Shown one piece after another: positions 606 to 16,001 of a stretch of 16,001 nt of DNA. The stretch is from a virus. The stretch's first letter is position 1. The number at the start of each line of letters is the position of its first letter. Below the pieces are notes generated by a model. It was not told the origin of the DNA and did not search any database. It saw only the letters and a list, made by a program, of their open reading frames with translations. A program made the translations under genes and the position numbers. The DNA lies in IMG/VR virus record IMGVR_UViG_3300045988_160359, positions 181,570 through 197,570 of that record; one strand, 5' to 3'.

Positions 606-666
606 CTTGTATACCTCTTTCAAAAATTTATTTTTGTTGTAAGGTCTTCCTTTACCTTACATATAT

Positions 667-695
667 ATTATATAATTTTTTTTTAAAAAAATCAA
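667..695 (-). promoter_or_regulatory. Promoter cassette copy A (TTGATT-N17-TATAAT plus conserved leader)
   Basis: Minus strand: TTGATT tttttaaaaaaaaatta TATAAT ATATATGTAAGGTAAAGGAAG. Plus-strand AATCAA at 690-695 and ATTATA at 667-672. The leader contains a 7-bp hairpin, GTAAGGT aaaggaag ACCTTAC. It drives the 198..605 gene. Confidence 0.75.
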
Positions 696-4298: not shown

Positions 4299-4538
4299 TT
4301 ACCAATTAACGGAATTTCGTGAAGCGCATGCCTCAATCTCATCAATCTTTACTACGCCTTTGAATTCAAGATTGTTCTTCAAACAATTCTTAGCATAGGT
4401 AATCATCACATTGTCCCAATCGCCCTCTTCTTCGGCAATTCTATCAATATAATGATTACCGGCGTCAATGGCATCAGTAAGGAACAGGTAATAATCCTCT
4501 TCTATGTCGAGAATATATTTAATCTTATAGATAGTCAT
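4299..4538 (-). CDS. Hypothetical protein (79 aa)
   Basis: ATG at 4536-4538 overlaps the stop of the upstream gene (TAATG). Acidic, no recognised family. Confidence 0.65.
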   Translation of the reverse strand: MTIYKIKYILDIEEDYYLFLTDAIDAGNHYIDRIAEEEGDWDNVMITYAKNCLKNNLEFKGVVKIDEIEACASRNSVNW

Positions 4539-4852
4539 TAGTAAATATCACACCCATCTACAATTTCATCAGAATCATACAGTTTCTGAAAACATCCGAC
4601 CAAATCTTCATTGTCAATGCGAGTGACAGACTTCATACAACTGAGCCTGTCAAACATATCAGTCAAACGATTGTCCTCAATACCCTCATAATGAATAGTC
4701 CTTACCTGATAATCCTCGTGATGAGGAACGCACAGATGGATATTAATGAAATATGCCAAGCTAACCTTCAACAGACTCTTGTTCTCATCAAACATTACGA
4801 CGTCCTTATCATGATAGCCATCGTCCAGGACCAAAGCCTTAATCATATTCAT
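4538..4852 (-). CDS. Hypothetical protein (~104 aa, MNMIKALVLDDGYHDKD...)
   Basis: Track ORF 4538..4888 begins at a TTG. An in-frame ATG at 4850-4852 is preceded by an AAGGAA RBS. The stop is in TAATG overlap with the next gene. Confidence 0.65.
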   Translation of the reverse strand: MNMIKALVLDDGYHDKDVVMFDENKSLLKVSLAYFINIHLCVPHHEDYQVRTIHYEGIEDNRLTDMFDRLSCMKSVTRIDNEDLVGCFQKLYDSDEIVDGCDIY

Positions 4853-4871
4853 CAATTCCTTTCTTGTTTCA

Positions 4872-5075
4872 TTATACAAAATTTCCAAGTTCTTTTAGCG
4901 AAGTGAAGAATTCACTAGCCATAGTCTCATTGAGTTGAAGGTCAATCTTATCTCCACTAAAATTAGTAATAGAGAAATTGTAGATACCATTTTCCTTATT
5001 GAGACGGATGTTGGTAGCAGATCTATCATCATCAGAGTTGATACAATAAGTTTTGTTAATGGTTAACATATTCAT
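4872..5075 (-). CDS. Hypothetical protein (~67 aa)
   Basis: Track ORF 4872..5078 with a TTG extension. Real ATG at 5073-5075 after an AAAGGAATTG RBS. It overlaps the 3' end of the 57-aa Cys ORF. Confidence 0.6.
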   Translation of the reverse strand: MNMLTINKTYCINSDDDRSATNIRLNKENGIYNFSITNFSGDKIDLQLNETMASEFFTSLKELGNFV

Positions 5076-5229: not shown

Positions 5230-5240
5230 CTTATATATAT

Positions 5241-5269
5241 ATTATATTATATTTTTTTTAAAAAATCAA
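5241..5269 (-). promoter_or_regulatory. Promoter cassette copy C
   Basis: Minus: TTGATT ttttaaaaaaaatataa TATAAT ATATATATAAGATG. Plus AATCAA at 5264-5269 and ATTATA at 5241-5246. The -35 overlaps the stop of the upstream 49-aa ORF. No terminator lies upstream. Confidence 0.75.
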
Positions 5270-5415
5270 TCGAATAGATTTTTACCAAACTCTCTGCGGT
5301 ATGCGTCTTCGAACATATGCCAATTACCGCAGAAATAGGTATCTACATACCAGTCAACCAAATCGGCGTTAACAGCCTCTTTGATAATGCTAGCAAATAC
5401 ATCTGTGTAATCCAT
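5266..5415 (-). CDS. Small protein (49 aa, MDYTDVFASIIKEAVNADLVDWYVDTYFCGNWHMFEDAYRREFGKNLFD)
   Basis: Not in the track. The ATG overlaps the stop of 5415..5723 (TAATG) with a GAGGAGG RBS inside the upstream gene's end. I read the frame codon by codon. Confidence 0.5.
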   Translation of the reverse strand: MDYTDVFASIIKEAVNADLVDWYVDTYFCGNWHMFEDAYRREFGKNLFD

Positions 5416-5723
5416 TAATATGCCTCCTCAACCTGATACCAAGTAGCAAGAGAACGATGAGTATAATAGCGTGTATACGCATCTACCCAAATAGCCTCCT
5501 CAGCCCACTGAATATGTTCTTTGGCCAGCTCATCGCGTACCTGCTCAACATAATAGTCAATAGTATTATCAAAAATAACACCCTGCTCAACCAAATTATC
5601 ATAGAAAGTATCTACAATAATCTGAGCGCGCATATTGACTACGCCGGGGTCACAAACAATAAATGCAGAACGAGCTCGGTCATCAGATCTCAAACCATAT
5701 TTTATATGATAACGATAATTCAT
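5415..5723 (-). CDS. Paralog family member 3 of 3 (102 aa; N-terminal YRYHIKYGL..., C-terminal ...TWYQVEEAY)
   Basis: ATG at 5721-5723. Its RBS GAGGAG lies in the last codons of the upstream paralog. It shares the N-terminal YxIxYGL motif and the C-terminal WYxVE motif with 5726..6082 and 6082..6447. Confidence 0.8.
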   Translation of the reverse strand: MNYRYHIKYGLRSDDRARSAFIVCDPGVVNMRAQIIVDTFYDNLVEQGVIFDNTIDYYVEQVRDELAKEHIQWAEEAIWVDAYTRYYTHRSLATWYQVEEAY

Positions 5724-5725
5724 AA

Positions 5726-6082
5726 TTACAACTCCTCAAATGGGTCATTAATGTCCATCAATTCCGCCTGATACCAAATATGGTCTTCAAGCATATCATT
5801 GTATTTATTAACCCCAAGGGCCCAGAATGATTGACCTTTATATTCCGGACCCACCGGACGTTTGCCAGTCAAATATTTTACTTTATCTCGGTATTCTTCA
5901 ACAAACTCACCAATAGAATGATTCCATTTAAATCTCTTTCCACGAGCCAGAGCTTCAAAATGATTACGAGCAATACATTGAGCATCTTCAAGAGCCTCTT
6001 CAAGACTCTCGCTATAACGAGTCATAGTTATCATATCGCCCACATCATAAGTGCCGTAAGTAAGCAAATATTTATGAAACAT
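5726..6082 (-). CDS. Paralog family member 2 of 3 (~118 aa, MFHKYLLTYGTYD...WYQAELMDINDPFEEL)
   Basis: Track ORF 5726..6097 is extended. Real ATG at 6080-6082 with a GGGAGGAG RBS, in TAATG overlap with the stop of 6082..6447. Confidence 0.8.
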   Translation of the reverse strand: MFHKYLLTYGTYDVGDMITMTRYSESLEEALEDAQCIARNHFEALARGKRFKWNHSIGEFVEEYRDKVKYLTGKRPVGPEYKGQSFWALGVNKYNDMLEDHIWYQAELMDINDPFEEL

Positions 6083-6447
6083 TAGAACTCCTCCCACTCT
6101 TCTTCTATTGGTATTAACGAAGGAGCTATATCAGGGGCTTTTTCTACTTTATACCAAACATAGTCATCAATCATTGACCAGTATAAATTATTAACATAGT
6201 CCCATGTAGCATCCCATTTATCCCAAGTATTAGGTAAATGTAAATCTTTTATTACTTTTTCGTAAACTTTCTTTTGGCTGGGAAATCGGGCACGGTTTTC
6301 ATTCGCTTTACGGAAAAATAAACTATGGGCTACCCGTGCCGCTCGGGATTGAGCCTGTTCTATATTAGAGGCATTAATAAATATACGACCTTTAAATATG
6401 CCTTCATGAATTATATTATATAGACCATACTCAATCTTATACATCAT
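6082..6447 (-). CDS. Paralog family member 1 of 3 (121 aa, MMYKIEYGLYN...WYKVEKAPD...EEEWEEF)
   Basis: ATGATG at 6447 after the cassette D leader AAGGAAGGAAA. Acidic Trp-rich C-terminus. Confidence 0.8.
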   Translation of the reverse strand: MMYKIEYGLYNIIHEGIFKGRIFINASNIEQAQSRAARVAHSLFFRKANENRARFPSQKKVYEKVIKDLHLPNTWDKWDATWDYVNNLYWSMIDDYVWYKVEKAPDIAPSLIPIEEEWEEF

Positions 6448-6479
6448 AAGCCCATTTCCTTCCTTTACCTTATATATAT

Positions 6480-6508
6480 ATTATATAATAATTTTTAATA
6501 AAAATCAA
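6480..6508 (-). promoter_or_regulatory. Promoter cassette copy D
   Basis: Minus: TTGATT tttattaaaaattatta TATAAT ATATATATAAGGTAAAGGAAGGAAATGG. Plus AATCAA at 6503-6508 and ATTATA at 6480-6485. Confidence 0.8.
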
Positions 6509-6517
6509 TAAAAAAAA

Positions 6518-6544
6518 ATAGGGATAGTATTATACTATCCCTAT
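6518..6544 (-). terminator. Rho-independent terminator ending the 8731..6551 operon
   Basis: 12-bp stem atagggatagta / tactatccctat with loop tta. It is followed on the minus strand by an 8-9 nt U-run (plus 6510-6518 A-run) that merges into the region upstream of promoter D's -35. Confidence 0.8.
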
Positions 6545-6550
6545 TATATA

Positions 6551-8731: not shown

Positions 8732-8746
8732 TCATCTTATATATAT

Positions 8747-8775
8747 ATTATATAATATTTTTTAATAAAAATCAA
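8747..8775 (-). promoter_or_regulatory. Promoter cassette copy E
   Basis: Minus: TTGATT tttattaaaaaatatta TATAAT ATATATATAAGATGAATGAAGGGAATGATACAAATGG. Plus AATCAA at 8770-8775 and ATTATA at 8747-8752. Confidence 0.8.
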
Positions 8776-8778
8776 AAA

Positions 8779-8807
8779 AAGGGATGAGGTGCTAGACCTC
8801 ATCCCTT
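8779..8807 (-). terminator. Rho-independent terminator ending operon F
   Basis: 12-bp stem (8779-8790 / 8796-8807, aagggatgaggt / acctcatccctt) with loop gctag. Followed on the minus strand by a 7-nt U-run. The lipoprotein gene's stop codon (8799-8801) lies inside the stem. Confidence 0.8.
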
Positions 8808-9485
8808 CAAAATACTTGTATCAATAATTGAAAAATTAGCCCTATGAACGTACAAATCCATATCATCAATTGTGATATGCGTGGTCTTGGGCAAATTCTT
8901 ACAAAGTTCCCAACTAACATCAGACCCGCTATACATTCGGATAGGCTCGCCTGTCTGAGACTGAATCACGACAACACGAGGCTTCACCGTACGCCCGTGA
9001 GACTGTTCGTTAATACACCACCACTGAACAGTCCAATAGTCAGTCCAATTCATACTATACCAAGGTTCATTAACATCAATATAAGCATCATTGGTGCGGA
9101 CGTGAGTATTAATAACCTCAGGAATATTCATATCCAAGATTTCAAGGCGGTTATCGGCAAAAATAATAGTTGAACCGCACGAATCAATCTGCTTGCCGTC
9201 GATATATACAGACATTACAGAGGACATTGTCCAATTATATTCCCAATATCCTTCGGTGCTATAAGTATATTCCTTCACCTTGTTCGGCTCAATATTGAAA
9301 GTAGAGCCGGTTGCGCTCAGCCACAGGTCGCCGGCGTTATCGTAAAAATCAGCATTGAAAGTGATTTTTACTGCTTCATCTTCTGGCTTATCAGTACCGA
9401 GAGTCTCGCCCTTCGGCCCGCCTACACAGCCGGCGCACATCAGAATAATCAAAACCGCCATCAACGCACACAGAAACTTACGCAT
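8799..9485 (-). CDS. Putative lipoprotein (~228 aa) with signal peptide and lipobox (MRKFLCALMAVLIILMCAG|C)
   Basis: Track ORF 8799..9569 is 5'-extended. The ATG at 9483-9485 has a GGGAGGAG RBS and overlaps the upstream stop (TAATG). Basic N-terminus, hydrophobic core and an A-G-C lipobox. The mature part is Trp/Tyr/Asn-rich. Last gene of the operon. Confidence 0.75.
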   Translation of the reverse strand: MRKFLCALMAVLIILMCAGCVGGPKGETLGTDKPEDEAVKITFNADFYDNAGDLWLSATGSTFNIEPNKVKEYTYSTEGYWEYNWTMSSVMSVYIDGKQIDSCGSTIIFADNRLEILDMNIPEVINTHVRTNDAYIDVNEPWYSMNWTDYWTVQWWCINEQSHGRTVKPRVVVIQSQTGEPIRMYSGSDVSWELCKNLPKTTHITIDDMDLYVHRANFSIIDTSILKG

Positions 9486-9735
9486 TAGTCTCCTCCCACC
9501 ATTTGGTAAACGGCATCCAGTGAAGAACAATATCGCCCTCGCAAATATTGCCCCAGACTTCTCCATCATAATCCCAATAACTTACTGAATAACTCTCTTC
9601 GGTCATATCGGGGCGGCCCCGATAAACAGGAGCGGTATGAACGACATAGGCCTTAGCCTTATCTTTAAGAGACGGATAATCACTGGGCACGCTTTCAAGA
9701 GCATTTACCCAACCACTTTTAATTTCAACGCTCAT
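9478..9735 (-). CDS. DUF551-like small protein (85 aa; ...GDIVLHWMPFTKWWEETNA)
   Basis: ATG at 9733-9735 lies inside the last codons of the upstream gene. The C-terminal HWMP motif with a Trp-rich tail and the N-terminal W...L.S.P segment resemble Pfam DUF551, from memory. Confidence 0.45.
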   Translation of the reverse strand: MSVEIKSGWVNALESVPSDYPSLKDKAKAYVVHTAPVYRGRPDMTEESYSVSYWDYDGEVWGNICEGDIVLHWMPFTKWWEETNA

Positions 9736-10018
9736 AAATAATCAAATTTCCTTCCTTATCATATAAGGGCGAGAGTGCTCCATTTGTATAAATATATACG
9801 ACGCCAGTATTTCGGTCAGCGACCGCATATGCATCTCCACCTAGCACCTCGCCCTTATCAACTGGGATAAATAGTTCTCTATCTTCTGGAAATACGATAC
9901 CATTATCTACGGTATTAGGTTTAAATAACGAGAAAATGTTAATAAACATAACCGCCACTAACAGAATCGCCGCAGTCAGGCACGCTGTTCCAAGATATTT
10001 CTTAATCGAATCCAACAT
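9725..10018 (-). CDS. Membrane-anchored small protein, paralog 2 of 2 (~97 aa)
   Basis: N-terminal TM helix (CLTAAILLVAVMFINIF), then FPEDRELFIPVDKGEVLGGDAYAVADRNTGVVYIYTNGALSPLYDKEGNLIIY. This aligns clearly with 10002..10364. The ATG (second codon of the track ORF) lies within the 3' end of the upstream paralog. Confidence 0.8.
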   Translation of the reverse strand: MLDSIKKYLGTACLTAAILLVAVMFINIFSLFKPNTVDNGIVFPEDRELFIPVDKGEVLGGDAYAVADRNTGVVYIYTNGALSPLYDKEGNLIIYER

Positions 10019-10364
10019 CAACTATTTCCTCGCTGGGGTCATATATCATCAATGACCCATCCTCATTATATAGCGGACAAAAACTGCCATATCCACCGAC
10101 GAAAATATACATAACGCCAGTAATAGAATCGGCATACACCGTGGCGGCATGTCCGCATACCTCACCACTATCTATTTTTAGAAATCGCTCACTGTCAATA
10201 GGGAAAAAACTCCCGTCTTGTAGTTCTTCCATTTTGTTCGCTGGACCGTTTACATAACTTTGTTCCATCTTATGGACTGTCTTAACTACTACCCAAATCA
10301 TCATACCCAAGAGTAATATCAGACAGACCCAAATCATAAAACGGTCTAAATCTATCTTCTTCAT
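10002..10364 (-). CDS. Membrane-anchored small protein, paralog 1 of 2 (120 aa)
   Basis: ATG with a GGAGGT RBS. TM helix (FMIWVCLILLLGMMIWVVV), then FPIDSERFLKIDSGEVCGHAATVYADSITGVMYIFVGGYGSFCPLYNEDGSLMIYD. Confidence 0.8.
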   Translation of the reverse strand: MKKIDLDRFMIWVCLILLLGMMIWVVVKTVHKMEQSYVNGPANKMEELQDGSFFPIDSERFLKIDSGEVCGHAATVYADSITGVMYIFVGGYGSFCPLYNEDGSLMIYDPSEEIVDVGFD

Positions 10365-10831: not shown

Positions 10832-11037
10832 TACTTACCCTCCATCATCTTGTCAATGTAATTGCGGAACTCATAAATGCGCTGAATGTCATACTCGGCT
10901 TCCTCAATTTCCTTTTCGTGCATCGCTACACTAATCGCATCAAACAAACCATCCAGACGCTCCAACGCCATATCCAGATTCATCAGTTTGTCGATATAAG
11001 TGCGCGTATCAAAATTATCAGATAATTTCATCTTCAT
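10831..11037 (-). CDS. Small protein (~68 aa, MKMKLSDNFDTRTYIDKLMNLDMALERLDGLF...)
   Basis: Track ORF 10831..11181 is a chimera. Its 5' half overlaps, in another frame, the real 58-aa ORF 11018..11194. The best start is the second ATG of ATGAAGATGAAGATG, 8 nt after GAGGG. Confidence 0.5.
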   Translation of the reverse strand: MKMKLSDNFDTRTYIDKLMNLDMALERLDGLFDAISVAMHEKEIEEAEYDIQRIYEFRNYIDKMMEGK

Positions 11038-11194
11038 CTTCATCACCCTCGACAATCTCCTTGTCATACCACCAAGCCAAATCATCATACGGGCCACAGG
11101 TATTCTCGCGGAGATACTTATAGATTTTCGATTCCGACCAATCACAGGGGACATTGATGAAATTGCGAACAGTGCGCTCATACCAAACTTTCAT
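11018..11194 (-). CDS. Mini-protein paralog (58 aa, MKVWYERTVRNFINVPCDWSESKIYKYLRENTCGPYDDLAWWYDKEIVEGDEDEDEII)
   Basis: Not in the track. GAGGATGTGG RBS. The ATG is in TAATG overlap with the stop of 11194..11391. Paralogous to 11592..11735 (VPxDW..K...K.LREN....Y.D..W). Confidence 0.55.
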   Translation of the reverse strand: MKVWYERTVRNFINVPCDWSESKIYKYLRENTCGPYDDLAWWYDKEIVEGDEDEDEII

Positions 11195-11591: not shown

Positions 11592-11735
11592 TCAATCCCT
11601 CGCATATGACCATTCCATATCATTGTAATCAGCAGGAGCATTCTCTCGGAGCAATTTCTCAACCTCTTTGTCAGTCCAATCATCAGGGACTTCAACTACA
11701 TCAAGGACGGAATAATTCACAAAAACAGTTCTCAT
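11592..11735 (-). CDS. Mini-protein paralog (47 aa, MRTVFVNYSVLDVVEVPDDWTDKEVEKLLRENAPADYNDMEWSYARD)
   Basis: Not in the track. First ORF after cassette F, with leader RBS AAAGGTGATTTCTCA ATG. It aligns with 11018..11194. Confidence 0.55.
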   Translation of the reverse strand: MRTVFVNYSVLDVVEVPDDWTDKEVEKLLRENAPADYNDMEWSYARD

Positions 11736-11764
11736 TGAGAAATCACCTTTCCTTTACCTTATAT

Positions 11765-11793
11765 ATATATTATATTATAAATTTTTAAAAAAA
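11765..11793 (-). promoter_or_regulatory. Promoter cassette copy F
   Basis: Minus: TTGATT tttttaaaaatttataa TATAAT ATATATATAAGGTAAAGGAAAGGTG. Plus AATCAA at 11788-11793 and ATTATA at 11765-11770. Only a weak 6-bp hairpin lies upstream (gagaga...tctctc), so there is no strong terminator here. Confidence 0.75.
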
Positions 11794-11797
11794 TCAA

Positions 11798-12094
11798 TTA
11801 GAGAGAATATTTCTTGATAAAATCTCTCAAACCGTAGTCATAAAGGTCGGCATCAAGCTGGTCATCGTTGATATCGTCGAACGCATTAGGGATTTCGTAG
11901 ATTGCGTAATCATACTCGCGTTCACCCTCCTCGTAGAGGTCGGTCAATGTAGTATAACTATCAATCAGTTCATCACACAAACATCGACCGATTTCATCGG
12001 CCTCACTAAAAGTATTAATGTGGTAGATGCCGCAATTGAAATATCCGTGGAGCCCGCCATAATAGGGCTCAGTTGCGTAAATTGCTACTCTCAC
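11798..12094 (-). CDS. Acidic protein (~98 aa), a possible ArdA-like DNA-mimic or anti-restriction candidate (low confidence)
   Basis: The best start is GTG at 12092-12094. GAGAGGAG lies 7 nt upstream and the GTG is in 4-nt GTGA overlap with the HNH gene's stop. The track's upstream ATG (12121) has no SD. The N-terminal VAIYATEPYYGGLHGYF loosely resembles the ArdA N-terminal IYVANLxxYNxGxLxGxW motif. The C-terminal half is strongly D/E/Y-rich. Confidence 0.6.
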   Translation of the reverse strand: MRVAIYATEPYYGGLHGYFNCGIYHINTFSEADEIGRCLCDELIDSYTTLTDLYEEGEREYDYAIYEIPNAFDDINDDQLDADLYDYGLRDFIKKYSL

Positions 12095-12804
12095 GCTTTT
12101 ACTCCTCTCAAATAATTCCATTTACGAGAATACATAGAACCATTCATACGAATGGTATTGCACAGCTTAAAGAAAAACTTCTCTTCGGTGGTGCTAACCT
12201 TAGAATTGTGCTGACAAAGCCAATCCATAGCCTCCATTGCCGTGCCTCTAAAACCATCATTGTTGATAAAAACAGTATCAAGAGTGATACCCTCTTGAAC
12301 AATGAAGGCGCGACAAGTAGTATCAGTAGTAGTAGCCAGCCATTTACCCAGAATATCGCCGCAGTTTTCCAGAATTTTCCCAGTATCCCGGTCGGTGGGT
12401 TCGGCGGTCTCAATAGGTTTAATAGGCTCAGTACCTGCATTGATTACAACAGGGACAGGGCTCGCCACAATATCATTGTTAGCGCGCATAAGATTCTCGG
12501 CCTGGCTAACCCATTCCAGATTATCAACGCGGTTATTGCGCTTATTGTGATCGAGATGGTCAACAGTGAATGCCTCGCGGTCTTCGATGGGACACCACGT
12601 ATACATTACCAAACGATGTGCCATACGGTTGCCGTGTTTGGTCTTTACAGACACATAGCCGTTCTGAGAATAAATTTTCTTAGGAATAGGACGCTTATGA
12701 ATGTCCTTAAAGTTGCCGAAGTTGGAAACCCAAACTCCATACTCCTTATTAAACTTCCACTTTTCAAACTCAATATGCAAGGTGGGAAAAATCATCATAA
12801 ACAT
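12091..12804 (-). CDS. HNH homing endonuclease (NUMOD4 N-terminal motif plus HNH_3-type core)
   Basis: EFEKWKFNKEYGVWVSNFGNFKD matches the N-terminal signature of phage HNH homing endonucleases. HRLVMYTWCPIEDREAFTVDHLDHNKRNNRVDNLEWVSQAENL is the HNH_3 catalytic motif (DH..-N-N.....NL.W......N). ATG is M2 of the track ORF, with an AAAGGAATTG RBS. It is driven by its own cassette copy G. Confidence 0.85.
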   Translation of the reverse strand: MFMMIFPTLHIEFEKWKFNKEYGVWVSNFGNFKDIHKRPIPKKIYSQNGYVSVKTKHGNRMAHRLVMYTWCPIEDREAFTVDHLDHNKRNNRVDNLEWVSQAENLMRANNDIVASPVPVVINAGTEPIKPIETAEPTDRDTGKILENCGDILGKWLATTTDTTCRAFIVQEGITLDTVFINNDGFRGTAMEAMDWLCQHNSKVSTTEEKFFFKLCNTIRMNGSMYSRKWNYLRGVKA

Positions 12805-12834
12805 CAATTCCTTTCTCTTTTACCTTATATATAT

Positions 12835-12863
12835 ATTATATAATAATTTTTAAAAAAAATCAA
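12835..12863 (-). promoter_or_regulatory. Promoter cassette copy G (drives the HNH endonuclease)
   Basis: Minus: TTGATT ttttttaaaaattatta TATAAT ATATATATAAGGTAAAAGAGAAAGGAATTG ATG. The -35 (plus 12858-12863) lies inside the left arm of the terminator stem at 12860-12898. Confidence 0.8.
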
Positions 12864-12906: not shown

Positions 12907-13191
12907 TTAGAAATTGACGTGCGCGTCTACCTGAACGCTATATACAGCCTTGGGTTTCATCTCAGCGAAAGCAACCCACTCTTGATGCCCCTGTTCAGCT
13001 CTCGCTCTATCAGGATATCGCTGAACGATGATAATATCGCCATCGCCCTTCCACATAGCGGTTTCATAGCCCTGGTCCACAGTATCACAAGTGTCAATGG
13101 TATAATCGCCAATAACATCGTGACCCACCTTATCAGCCTTTGAATAATCATTATTCATAATACCGAACATCAAATCAAACAAAGAATCCAT
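12907..13191 (-). CDS. Acidic hypothetical protein (~94 aa, MDSLFDLMFGIMNNDYSKADKV...)
   Basis: Track ORF 12907..13215 is extended. The ATG at 13189-13191 follows a perfect AAGGAGGTACAGT RBS. Confidence 0.75.
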   Translation of the reverse strand: MDSLFDLMFGIMNNDYSKADKVGHDVIGDYTIDTCDTVDQGYETAMWKGDGDIIIVQRYPDRARAEQGHQEWVAFAEMKPKAVYSVQVDAHVNF

Positions 13192-13202
13192 ACTGTACCT
13201 CC

Positions 13203-13595
13203 TTACGGCGCCCAATCTATCGGCTCAATCTCCATCCACCATCCGGCTCTAAACCAACTGGTGAGAGGATTTGACCGAGCCCTCTGACATCTATATACTC
13301 GATAATTAAAATCGTAAACTTTATTATAAATAGTATTGTAGGTAGCTTCATTAGTCTCTGCGTCATCACCATACCGTTCAATGTATCGAACGATATTTGC
13401 GCGTTCCGCATCTATCTGAAACTTATCATAGTCGCAAAGGCGTATAAAGAAACAGACAATGCCTAATGCGAGGAAAGCACAAAGAGCAACTCCTCCGATG
13501 ACACTAATACATTCATTTGTATCAACATCTCGAATCTTATGAAATAGAATGCTACAAATTACAAATACTACAAGAGGCAGCAATAAGAGAATCAT
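13203..13595 (-). CDS. Two-TM membrane protein, paralog 2 of 2 (~130 aa; ...NPLTSWFRAGWWMEIEPIDWAP)
   Basis: The ATG (M3 of the track ORF) is in 4-nt ATGA overlap with the upstream stop, 6 nt after AAGGAGG. Two hydrophobic helices precede a soluble C-terminal domain ending in the TSWFxxxW motif shared with 13592..13996. Confidence 0.8.
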   Translation of the reverse strand: MILLLLPLVVFVICSILFHKIRDVDTNECISVIGGVALCAFLALGIVCFFIRLCDYDKFQIDAERANIVRYIERYGDDAETNEATYNTIYNKVYDFNYRVYRCQRARSNPLTSWFRAGWWMEIEPIDWAP

Positions 13596-13996
13596 TTCCA
13601 TCCTCCTTCTGGAAATTCTACGGTAGTTAGGTCAGCCATCCAAGAGCGACCAAACCAAGAAGTCCATTCGTTGTTATAAGTATCGCGCATCGAGATAACC
13701 AATTCATTGTATTCATCTACATCGTGGACGAGTTCCGAGGTCAGACGAGCATCTTTGCGCCAATACTCATCATTAATACGCAGTTCAAGGAGCGCACGCT
13801 CCTTATCCATCGCGTCTTGGGTGCGGAGGTCAGAATCAAATGGCGTACAGGCACACATCGCCCCGCACACAATAAGACCAATCGCACAGCAAACCGCAAT
13901 TAAGAGAAAAGCCATAGAAATATCACGGTTTTCAAACTTATGGCACAGATAAGCGCTGATAATAAATACTATAATAAACAAAATAGTAGTTAGCAT
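13592..13996 (-). CDS. Two-TM membrane protein, paralog 1 of 2 (134 aa; ...NNEWTSWFGRSWMADLTTVEFPEGGWK)
   Basis: ATG at 13994-13996 overlaps the upstream stop (ATGCTAA). Helices VFIISAYLCHKFENRD and ISMAFLLIAVCCAIGLIVCGAM align with the paralog. Confidence 0.8.
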   Translation of the reverse strand: MLTTILFIIVFIISAYLCHKFENRDISMAFLLIAVCCAIGLIVCGAMCACTPFDSDLRTQDAMDKERALLELRINDEYWRKDARLTSELVHDVDEYNELVISMRDTYNNEWTSWFGRSWMADLTTVEFPEGGWK

Positions 13997-15952: not shown

Positions 15953-15986
15953 TTTGTATCATTTCCTTTCTTCATCTTATATATAT

Positions 15987-16001
15987 ATTATATTATAAAT
16001 T
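15987..16001 (-). promoter_or_regulatory. Promoter cassette copy H (partial; -10 and leader only inside the window)
   Basis: 15947-16001 is identical to 2447-2501 (copy B). By that offset the -10 lies at 15987-15992 and the -35 would be just beyond the window end. Confidence 0.6.

What the first reader, a model, noticed from the sequence alone, without database searches (positions are those of the whole stretch)
5415..6447. Tandem triplet of paralogous about 100-120-aa proteins behind cassette D
Genes 6082..6447, 5726..6082 and 5415..5723 share an N-terminal YxIxYGL/TYG motif (MMYKIEYGLYN, MFHKYLLTYGTYD, MNYRYHIKYGLRSDD), a central A..A..hF helix and a C-terminal WY(K/Q)VE motif with an acidic tail (EEEWEEF, DPFEEL, EEAY). 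They are translationally coupled through TAATG overlaps. Tandemly diversified paralog arrays at the start of phage early operons are typical of host-interaction or anti-defence proteins under diversifying selection.
Basis: seen in the sequence. Interest (0 to 1): 0.65.

Follow-up and report, generated by a model that had tools for sequence, protein, structure and literature searches.

The report
Three-paralog small-protein operon in gut phage
Three neighbouring small genes of an uncultured ~200-kb human-gut phage are true but ancient copies of one previously undescribed protein family that is gained, lost, fused and reshuffled between phage strains; this is typical of phage host-interaction genes, and its actual function is still unknown.

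Summary
Genes A (6082..6447), B (5726..6082) and C (5415..5723), all on the minus strand, are homologous. Profile-profile E-values are A-B 2.4e-9 and A-C/B-C about 1.6e-4. All three alignments are full-length and collinear, and they score above all 42 control comparisons. AlphaFold gives A and C the same beta-beta-alpha-alpha-alpha-beta topology.

With a 49-aa ORF the genes form one unit behind a terminator plus sigma70-type promoter cassette. This cassette is one of eight in the window.

The family is tiny: 13 clusters among 1.84 billion representatives. It has no Pfam, PHROGs, NCBIfam, PADLOC or PDB sequence match. It is confined to ~195-200-kb human-gut phage contigs.

Array content varies between strains:
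- A-B-C, the usual form
- an in-frame A/B fusion made by crossover at the shared WYxxE codons
- C alone behind its own promoter
- extra subfamilies D, E and F

A and B are fast-evolving and reassorted. C is strongly constrained. No gene has omega above 1, so diversifying selection is not shown.

The shared "acidic tail" is largely the embedded GAGGAG ribosome-binding site of the next gene.

Function is inferred only: probably early-expressed, stand-alone host-binding proteins. This is a new family of an ordinary kind.

The parts
6517..6545 (-). Intrinsic-terminator-like hairpin (13-bp stem, then a T-run) ending the upstream unit
   Evidence: sequence
6469..6508 (-). Sigma70-type promoter cassette: -35 TTGATT, 17-nt spacer, -10 TATAAT, within the repeat TATATAATATATATATAAG. 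One of 8 copies in the window.
   Evidence: 8 matches, 0.03 expected by chance
6457..6464 (-). Shine-Dalgarno sequence (AGGAAGGA) of gene A
6082..6447 (-). Gene A, 121 aa. Fast-evolving family member with a disordered C-terminal tail (residues 104-121).
6142..6168 (-). Codons DDYVWYKVE of A. This is the conserved stretch shared with B where the crossover that made the A/B fusion allele occurred; the junction lies right after the E codon.
6088..6095 (-). GGGAGGAG inside A's last codons (W-E-E). It is the Shine-Dalgarno sequence of gene B.
5726..6082 (-). Gene B, 118 aa, ATG at 6082 overlapping A's stop (TAATG). Fast-evolving family member.
5762..5788 (-). Codons EDHIWYQAE of B, the partner of the crossover motif in A
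5732..5737 (-). GAGGAG inside B's last codons (E-E). It is the Shine-Dalgarno sequence of gene C.
5415..5723 (-). Gene C, 102 aa. The most constrained family member. In other phage lineages it occurs alone behind its own promoter.
5423..5429 (-). GAGGAGG inside C's last codons (E-E-A). It is the Shine-Dalgarno sequence of the 49-aa gene.
5266..5415 (-). 49-aa ORF, fourth gene of the unit (TAATG overlap with C). Conserved (omega about 0.07-0.13). No match to the family profile.
5230..5269 (-). Next promoter cassette (TTGATT, 17-nt spacer, TATAAT, plus the repeat), marking the downstream boundary of the unit

Best explanation
A, B and C are ancient paralogues of one lineage-restricted family of small (100-123 aa), soluble, mildly acidic, aromatic-rich alpha/beta proteins.

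Fold and organisation:
- The predicted fold is a beta-hairpin, three helices and a C-terminal strand.
- The conserved N-terminal YxxxYG and C-terminal WYxxE motifs are the first and last strands.
- Together with a 49-aa ORF the genes form one transcription unit. It is driven by a strong sigma70-type promoter cassette, inside a region of many such cassettes and small ORFs.
- The region belongs to an uncultured ~195-200-kb human-gut phage.
- Translation is coupled. The ribosome-binding site of each downstream gene is written into the last Glu-Glu codons of the preceding gene.

How the locus evolves:
- Whole-gene cassettes are gained and lost.
- Unequal crossover occurs at the conserved WYxxE codons.
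- Alleles are reassorted between strains.
- A and B change fast and C is held nearly constant.

Most likely mechanism (inferred, not shown): host RNA polymerase transcribes these genes early, and each protein acts on its own as a binder of a host or host-defence component. The conserved sheet plus helices 2-3 would be the scaffold. The variable hairpin loop, helix 1 and tail would be the specificity surface.

Confidence by part: real paralogous family with this fold, operon structure and dynamics, about 0.95; early host-directed binder or inhibitor role, about 0.4.
For: Paralogy:
- Shuffle z-scores.
- hhalign A-B E 2.4e-9, A-C and B-C about 1.6e-4, all full length. These exceed all 42 controls.
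- Five invariant residues in the joint alignment.
- A natural in-frame A/B recombinant joined exactly at the shared motif, seen in three samples that differ at 6-7 of 641 nt.

Fold:
- AF2 model of A: pLDDT 81, pTM 0.69.
- AF2 model of C: pLDDT 93, pTM 0.79.

Operon:
- Terminator, promoter and Shine-Dalgarno sequences.
- GAGGAG is invariant in all loci. It moves into a spacer in exactly those loci whose B tail lacks EE.

Independence of the members:
- C alone at 90-93% identity, behind its own terminator and promoter, in L027-L030.
- E and F members are solitary.

Restricted family:
- 13 of 1.84e9 representative clusters.
- No Pfam, PHROGs, NCBIfam, PADLOC, PDB or INPHARED hit.

Rate asymmetry:
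- At similar dS, dN is 0.19 for A, 0.15 for B and 0.008 for C.
- Allele classes at 90% identity: 7, 7 and 3, reassorted.

Context:
- The region resembles the SPO1 host-takeover module, which has small genes and many strong promoters and ribosome-binding sites (PMC6873191).
- Neighbouring genes hit phage families, including an HNH endonuclease and a phosphoesterase.
Against: - No functional evidence of any kind. There is no homologue of known function.
- Early timing is inferred only from promoter-like consensus sequences. Overall, promoter-like sites in the scanned region are not more frequent than in shuffles; it is the repeated cassette that is non-random.
- Omega is below 1 everywhere, and no positively selected site was detected.
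- The host is unknown.
- Both AF2 models used the same joint alignment, so their agreement is not fully independent.
Confidence: 0.5

Rival explanations
1. A, B and C are subunits of one hetero-oligomeric complex. They duplicated and subfunctionalised, which would explain why they are kept together, in fixed order and translationally coupled.
For: - The order A-B-C is fixed in most loci, including a distant lineage.
- Stop/start overlaps and embedded Shine-Dalgarno sequences favour equimolar synthesis.
- In SPO1, products of one host-takeover operon can act together (PMC6873191).
Against: - C occurs alone at 90-93% identity behind its own promoter.
- An A/B fusion that removes one whole subunit persists in three samples.
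- E and F members are solitary.
- A and B alleles reassort freely. Tightly co-adapted subunits would resist this.
Confidence: 0.15
2. They have a phage-internal role rather than a host-directed one. For example, they could be accessory regulators of phage transcription or replication, or chaperones.
For: - C is extremely constrained (dN 0 at dS 0.41). That fits a conserved phage partner as well as it fits a conserved host target.
- No anti-defence or inhibitor homology was found.
Against: - A and B are dispensable and variable, and the cassettes are mobile.
- The genes lie among small promoter-flanked ORFs rather than in replication or structural modules.
Confidence: 0.2
3. They are Dmd-like antitoxins: direct inhibitors of host toxin or abortive-infection nucleases, like T4 Dmd acting on LsoA/RnlA.
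Against: - The family has two extra helices.
Confidence: 0.06
4. The resemblance is chance or compositional bias, so these are not homologous genes.
For: The single-sequence A-C and B-C scores are only marginal (z about 3).
Against: - Profile comparisons and their controls.
- Shared invariant residues.
- Same predicted topology.
- A natural recombinant at the shared motif.
- One HMM retrieves all three groups at E <= 1e-35 from 1.84e9 proteins.
Confidence: 0.02

Closest known systems
SPO1 host-takeover module (Bacillus phage SPO1 genes 37-60; PMC6873191)
   Same: - A cluster of mostly small genes arranged in many short operons.
- Each operon has a strong host-type promoter and a strong ribosome-binding site.
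- Most products have no homologues.
- Here there are 8 promoter cassettes in 16 kb and GAGGAG Shine-Dalgarno sequences.
   Different: - No sequence similarity to SPO1.
- Early expression, cytotoxicity and location in a terminal redundancy are untested here.
- I did not check whether the SPO1 module contains a comparable family; no three-member paralog family with strain-to-strain cassette shuffling came up in the passages read.
T4 Dmd antitoxin (PDB 5HY3 chain B)
   Different: - Dmd has 57-60 aa, and the family carries two additional helices.
- The score is the same as for unrelated cellular proteins (eL20, PaaB, PurS).
- No functional link.
Other small phage inhibitor folds: T7 Gp2 (2WNM), AcrIC9 (8HJJ), AcrIE2 (7CHQ)
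   Different: The scores are in the noise range. There is no sequence similarity, and no anti-CRISPR-associated regulator gene was noted next to the array.
Uncharacterised viral proteins in BFVD: A0A8S5RUJ0, A0A345BPB3, A0A345BPB1
   Same: - Full-length Foldseek matches of similar size (114, 129 and 100 aa). The best has E 8.7e-4 and TM 0.53-0.56.
- Two of the hits have near-consecutive accession numbers. They may therefore be near-neighbour genes of one phage, which would also be a possible paralog pair.
   Different: 12-14% identity. They have no annotation, and I could not retrieve their sequences or context.
Gene 'accordion' or unequal-crossover dynamics of viral host-range paralog arrays (for example poxvirus K3L; from my own knowledge, not tested here)
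   Same: Array contraction by homologous recombination between tandem paralogs. Here it is an in-frame A/B fusion that removes exactly one repeat unit.
   Different: The paralogs here are ancient (20-28% identity). The crossover used only about 30 nt of conserved motif. No recent amplification was seen.

Membership tests
The YxxxYG...WYxxE family itself (A, B, C as members of one family) | Significant full-length profile-profile similarity between the three ortholog groups | tested here: met
   (E 2.4e-9, 1.6e-4, 1.7e-4); controls (best control score 19.3 against 27-55)
The YxxxYG...WYxxE family itself (A, B, C as members of one family) | Same predicted fold topology (beta-beta-alpha-alpha-alpha-beta) | tested here: met
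   Caveat: both models used the same joint alignment.
SPO1-type host-takeover / early accessory module | Small genes in many short operons, each with a strong host-type promoter and a strong ribosome-binding site | tested here: met
   definition from PMC6873191
SPO1-type host-takeover / early accessory module | Expressed early in infection, with products that shut off or redirect host processes | not testable with these tools
   The phage is uncultured and no expression or phenotype data are available.
T4 Dmd antitoxin family | Sequence membership (a family-model match) | tested here: not met
   [not shown]
T4 Dmd antitoxin family | Fold match clearly above generic alpha/beta modules | tested here: inconclusive
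   [not shown]
Known anti-defence proteins (anti-CRISPR and others) | Homology or a strong fold match to a characterised anti-defence protein | tested here: not met
   - No PDB sequence hit.
- No dedicated anti-defence HMM library was available.
DNA-mimic proteins (Ocr, ArdA, SPO1 Gp44 type) | Strongly acidic protein with a large net negative charge | tested here: not met
   pI and net charge: A 5.9 / -2; B 5.0 / -7; C 4.8 / -7. This is only mildly acidic.
SSB C-terminal-tail mimics (acidic disordered tail ending in an aromatic or hydrophobic residue) | A conserved acidic tail whose conservation is explained at the protein level | tested here: inconclusive
   - The A tail is disordered (pLDDT < 50) and ends in EEWEEF.
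- But the EE is encoded by the invariant GAGGAG Shine-Dalgarno sequence of the next gene.
- The EE disappears when that sequence moves into a spacer.

The most novel reading that the evidence does not exclude
The locus is a modular counter-defence or host-range locus of a widespread group of ~200-kb human-gut phages, built from a new inhibitor fold family. C would neutralise a conserved host target. The rapidly changing, reassorting A and B copies, and the optional D, E and F copies, would track variable host defence or surface-independent immunity proteins. Array remodelling (fusion, loss, cassette transfer between promoter repeats) would be the adaptive mechanism.
Probability: 0.25. Interest if true: 0.55.

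Novelty: new member of a known kind. Interest (0 to 1): 0.33.

Why it matters
If the inferred role is right, this is an uncharacterised family of small phage effectors from abundant, uncultured large gut phages.

It has a useful natural contrast: one invariant member and two hypervariable ones, plus natural fusion and single-gene variants. Those variants could guide target discovery.

Two smaller points are of general use for reading raw phage sequence:
- Shared "acidic C-terminal tails" in coupled phage operons can be a by-product of embedded Shine-Dalgarno sequences rather than a protein motif.
- A 30-nt conserved motif is enough for in-frame unequal crossover between 25%-identical paralogs.

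As it stands, the finding is a well-documented piece of phage dark matter, not a new mechanism.

Tried and rejected
- **Identifying the phage.** Megablast of the whole window against INPHARED gave no match. So did tblastn of A, B, C and the 247-aa phosphoesterase; the 578-aa protein gave only one weak partial hit (27% identity over 19% of the query, E 6e-4) to an unannotated 4.4-kb human-faecal 'Bacteriophage sp.' fragment. IMG/VR holds only two relatives. Walking out of the window with the 141-aa edge gene failed because there is no exact match on record. Phage taxonomy and host therefore remain unknown.
- **Function by homology.** Pfam, PHROGs, NCBIfam, PADLOC and PDB sequence searches gave nothing above noise.
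- **SSB-tail-mimic idea for the acidic tails.** Downgraded after finding that the EE codons are the next gene's Shine-Dalgarno sequence.
- **The 49-aa ORF as a truncated family member** (it contains DWYVD). Not supported: no HMM hit at E <= 10.
- **Stop-codon recoding in L014.** The database protein P0115 has Q where the DNA has TAG. Rejected as unnecessary: an in-frame GTG start downstream of the TAG gives a normal N-terminus.
- **Apparent dN/dS above 1 for the DUF5052 gene, and an odd value for the 244-aa gene.** These are artefacts of using an over-long ORF and mismatched extents. The proteins are 91-97% identical among the close relatives, including the L012 lineage (59-69% only in the far more distant L015/L016 lineage), with omega 0.03-0.09.
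- **Site-wise selection.** A crude parsimony counting test found no site with a significant nonsynonymous excess. Power is low, and recombination violates the single-tree assumption.

Full report
**1. What is in the window**

All plausible genes in the 16-kb window lie on the minus strand. Most are small. GC content is 40.5%.

The three genes of the finding are:
- A = 6082..6447, 121 aa
- B = 5726..6082, 118 aa. The ATG at 6082 is used by all orthologs; the GTG at 6097 in the ORF list is an artefact of ORF extension.
- C = 5415..5723, 102 aa

There are two small corrections. B reads WYQAE. The B/C junction is TAATTATG, a 2-nt spacer, whereas A/B and C/49-aa are TAATG overlaps.

**2. Is the resemblance more than chance?**

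Yes.

Single-sequence Smith-Waterman scores against 1000 shuffles:
- A-B: z = 6.4, reached by 0 of 1000 shuffles
- A-C: z = 2.9, reached by 19 of 1000
- B-C: z = 3.3, reached by 10 of 1000

I collected orthologs of each gene: 30, 27 and 51 clusters. I aligned them separately and compared the profiles with hhalign:
- A-B: 96% probability, E 2.4e-9, 106 columns
- A-C: E 1.6e-4, 95 columns
- B-C: E 1.7e-4, 97 columns

Each alignment runs from the N-terminal YxxxYG to the C-terminal WYxxE without rearrangement.

As an empirical null I compared the same three profiles with ortholog alignments of 14 unrelated neighbouring genes, 42 comparisons in all. The best control scored 19.3 over 13 columns. 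The paralog comparisons scored 27-55 over 95-106 columns.

The joint alignment has invariant Y3, Y7, G8, Y89 and W98 (A numbering). A36, D68, W82, Y99 and E102 are nearly invariant.

A profile of the joint alignment, searched against 1.84 billion cluster representatives, retrieved all three groups at E <= 1e-35. It found only 13 clusters in total.

**3. Structure**

AlphaFold2 with the joint alignment gave these models:
- A: pLDDT 81, pTM 0.69. Strands 2-9 and 18-25, helices 29-50, 58-69 and 80-94, strand 97-103. The tail (104-121) is modelled with low confidence; residues 115-121 fall below pLDDT 50.
- C: pLDDT 93, pTM 0.79. The same order of elements.

The two conserved motifs are the first and last strands. 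Because both models share one alignment, their agreement is supportive rather than independent.

Foldseek against BFVD gave one full-length match at E 8.7e-4 (A0A8S5RUJ0, TM 0.53-0.56). It also gave two weaker hits with near-consecutive accession numbers (A0A345BPB1 and A0A345BPB3). All three are uncharacterised. The afdb50 library was unavailable.

Pfam, PHROGs, NCBIfam, PADLOC, PDB sequence and INPHARED searches were negative.

The proteins have no obvious signal peptide or membrane segment (by inspection only). They are mildly acidic, with pI 5.9, 5.0 and 4.8, and contain 15-17% aromatic residues.

**4. Operon anatomy**

Directly upstream of A lie three elements:
- a terminator-like hairpin (6517-6545)
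- a sigma70-type promoter: TTGATT, 17-nt spacer, TATAAT (6480-6508)
- a Shine-Dalgarno sequence

The promoter is embedded in a repeat, TATATAATATATATATAAG. The repeat occurs 8 times on the minus strand of the window, against 0.03 expected by chance. The next copy, at 5230-5269, follows the 49-aa ORF (5266..5415).

The unit is therefore A-B-C-49aa. The 49-aa ORF does not match the family profile.

The multi-promoter, small-gene layout resembles the SPO1 host-takeover module (PMC6873191). Neighbouring genes hit phage families, including an HNH endonuclease, a phosphoesterase and DUF5052.

**5. The acidic tails are largely a nucleotide signal**

The terminal Glu-Glu of A (WEEF), B (FEEL) and C (VEEAY) is always encoded as GAGGAG. 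This sits 5-8 nt upstream of the next ATG, so it is the Shine-Dalgarno sequence of the downstream gene.

GAGGAG is invariant at these positions in all related loci that keep the EE tails; the distant L012 lineage has GGGAGGAA before B. In the two divergent lineages where B ends in PFNSL or PFESL, with no EE, a Shine-Dalgarno sequence appears instead in a short spacer after the stop codon: TAAGGAGACATT-ATG and TAAGGAGGAACT-ATG.

GAA and GAG are used equally in the window overall.

It also weakens my own passing idea of an SSB-tail mimic.

**6. Distribution and array dynamics**

All relatives come from human-gut metagenome contigs. The long ones are 179-201 kb.

A census of 37 loci shows several architectures.

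- **A-B-C-49aa.** This is the majority form. It also occurs as A'-B'-C' in a distant lineage, where A is 45%, B 51% and C 71% identical to the window copies. In that same lineage the neighbouring DUF5052 and 244-aa proteins are still 91-92% identical. The triplication is therefore old.
- **A/B fusion followed by C.** A 109-aa in-frame fusion with the A body and the B tail, followed directly by C, occurs in three independent samples. Their sequences differ at 6-7 of 641 nt. DNA alignment places the junction immediately after the shared ...TGGTAT-AAA-GTA-GAA (WYKVE) codons. This is unequal homologous recombination within about 30 nt of conserved motif, and it removes exactly one unit.
- **C alone.** C occurs alone at 90-93% identity, with or without the 49-aa gene, in L027-L030. 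There it sits in a rearranged cassette context, directly behind its own terminator, TGTTATAAT promoter and Shine-Dalgarno sequence. One sample holds both this type and an A-B-C type.
- **Further subfamilies.** D (123 aa) follows C or the 49-aa gene in L011 and L018. E (P0115) lies behind the homolog of window gene 4538..4888. F (P0117) lies upstream of the zinc-finger-like 55-aa gene in a more distant phage.

Copy number and composition therefore do vary, and members can exist alone. This argues against an obligate A-B-C complex.

**7. Selection**

Gene-wide omega by two methods:

| Gene | Pairwise Nei-Gojobori omega | Tree-based counting omega |
|---|---|---|
| A | 0.28 | 0.47 |
| B | 0.28 | 0.25 |
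| C | 0.10 | 0.14 |
| 49-aa ORF | about 0.07 | 0.13 |
| 55-aa zinc-finger-like gene | about 0.055 | 0.07 |

Local neighbours range from 0.055 to 0.28 in the pairwise analysis. The values for DUF5052 and the 244-aa gene are artefacts. No site showed a significant nonsynonymous excess in the counting test.

At matched synonymous divergence the asymmetry is striking:
- Window against L001: dN is 0.193 for A and 0.153 for B. It is 0.008 for C and for the 49-aa gene, and 0.02 for DUF5052.
- Window against L033: C has dN 0 at dS 0.41, while A is only 65% identical.

In A, nonsynonymous changes concentrate in residues 21-40 and in the tail. Residues 55-103 are almost invariant.

At 90% identity there are 7 A classes, 7 B classes and 3 C classes among 17 full triplets. 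They are combined in reassorted ways.

Conclusion: A and B are fast-evolving and recombining, and C is strongly constrained. Diversifying selection is possible for parts of A and B but is not demonstrated.

**8. Interpretation**

Shown:
- A real, narrow, previously undescribed protein family.
- Three ancient paralogs in one coupled transcription unit behind a repeated promoter cassette.
- Cassette-level gain and loss, unequal crossover and allele shuffling.
- Purifying selection on all members, with very different strengths.

Inferred:
- Early, host-polymerase-dependent expression.
- Action as stand-alone binders of host or host-defence components.
- The invariant sheet and helix 2-3 part as scaffold, and the variable hairpin, helix 1 and tail as specificity surface.

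Rivals, all less likely, are a hetero-oligomeric complex, a phage-internal role and a specifically Dmd-like antitoxin role. Chance similarity is excluded.

**9. Verdict**

This is a new family of a familiar kind: variable small accessory genes of a large phage. I found no evidence of a new mechanism.

The most useful by-products are three:
- the Shine-Dalgarno explanation of the acidic tails
- the documented in-frame A/B crossover
- the contrast between invariant C and hypervariable A and B, which gives a handle for target discovery

Noticed in passing
window 656-674, 2476-2494, 5230-5248, 6469-6487, 8736-8754, 11758-11776, 12824-12842, 15976-15994 (all minus strand): Eight copies of a promoter cassette, (T/A)ATATAATATATATATAAG, with TTGATT about 17 nt upstream where checked. 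Chance expectation is 0.03. The cassettes divide the region into short operons. They are plausible recombination substrates for the cassette shuffling seen between related phages (L027-L030 carry the same small genes in a different order).
   Followed up: partly
window 9725-10021 and 10002-10364 (-); 13203-13601 and 13592-13996 (-); 11018-11194 and 11592-11735 (-): Three more paralog pairs in the same window. The first two pairs are adjacent overlapping genes; the third pair lies about 400 nt apart. The first pair are membrane-anchored proteins with weak DUF6440 hits (blastp E 9e-15). The second pair are about 133-aa membrane proteins (E 1.5e-5). The third pair are 47-58-aa acidic proteins (E 2.7e-8). 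Local gene duplication is a general feature of this region.
   Followed up: partly
window 4538-4888 (-): The 116-aa gene downstream of the operon is as variable as A and B. It is 44-99% identical across loci, with omega 0.24-0.44. In one relative (L014) it is directly followed by a solitary family member (subfamily E).
   Followed up: partly
window 8799-9485 (-): DUF5052 protein. The true start is the ATG at 9485 (228 aa, as called in all relatives), not the 256-aa ORF in the list. Its N-terminus, MRKFLCALMAVLIILMCAGC, looks like a lipoprotein signal with a lipobox. The protein is highly conserved (91-97% identity, omega 0.06-0.09). It might be a membrane-anchored exclusion or host-surface protein.
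   Followed up: partly
window 12091-12807 (-), with 11798-12121 and 12907-13215; L027 4083-4688: An HNH endonuclease gene and a promoter cassette lie between two small genes (107 aa and 102 aa). Homologs of those two genes are fused into one 202-aa protein in L027-L030, with the 107-like part first (blastp E 2e-15 and 7e-14). This is a domain fusion or fission with rearrangement.
   Followed up: partly
L009 3202-3570, L012 4815-5207, L015 5196-5546: In several relatives a TM2/SHOCT-domain membrane protein gene is inserted between the 55-aa zinc-finger-like gene and gene A. It is absent from the window. This is another optional cassette at the same promoter junction.
   Followed up: no
L014 323-334: The database protein P0115 reads Q where the contig has an in-frame TAG, so the gene caller used a recoded genetic table for this contig. 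An in-frame GTG start downstream of the TAG makes recoding unnecessary for this gene. I did not test whether some relatives of this phage group use TAG recoding.
   Followed up: partly
BFVD hits A0A345BPB1 and A0A345BPB3: Two of the three best viral fold matches have near-consecutive UniProt accession numbers. They may therefore be near-neighbour genes in one unrelated phage, which would hint at a similar paralog pair elsewhere. Sequences and context could not be retrieved.
   Followed up: no
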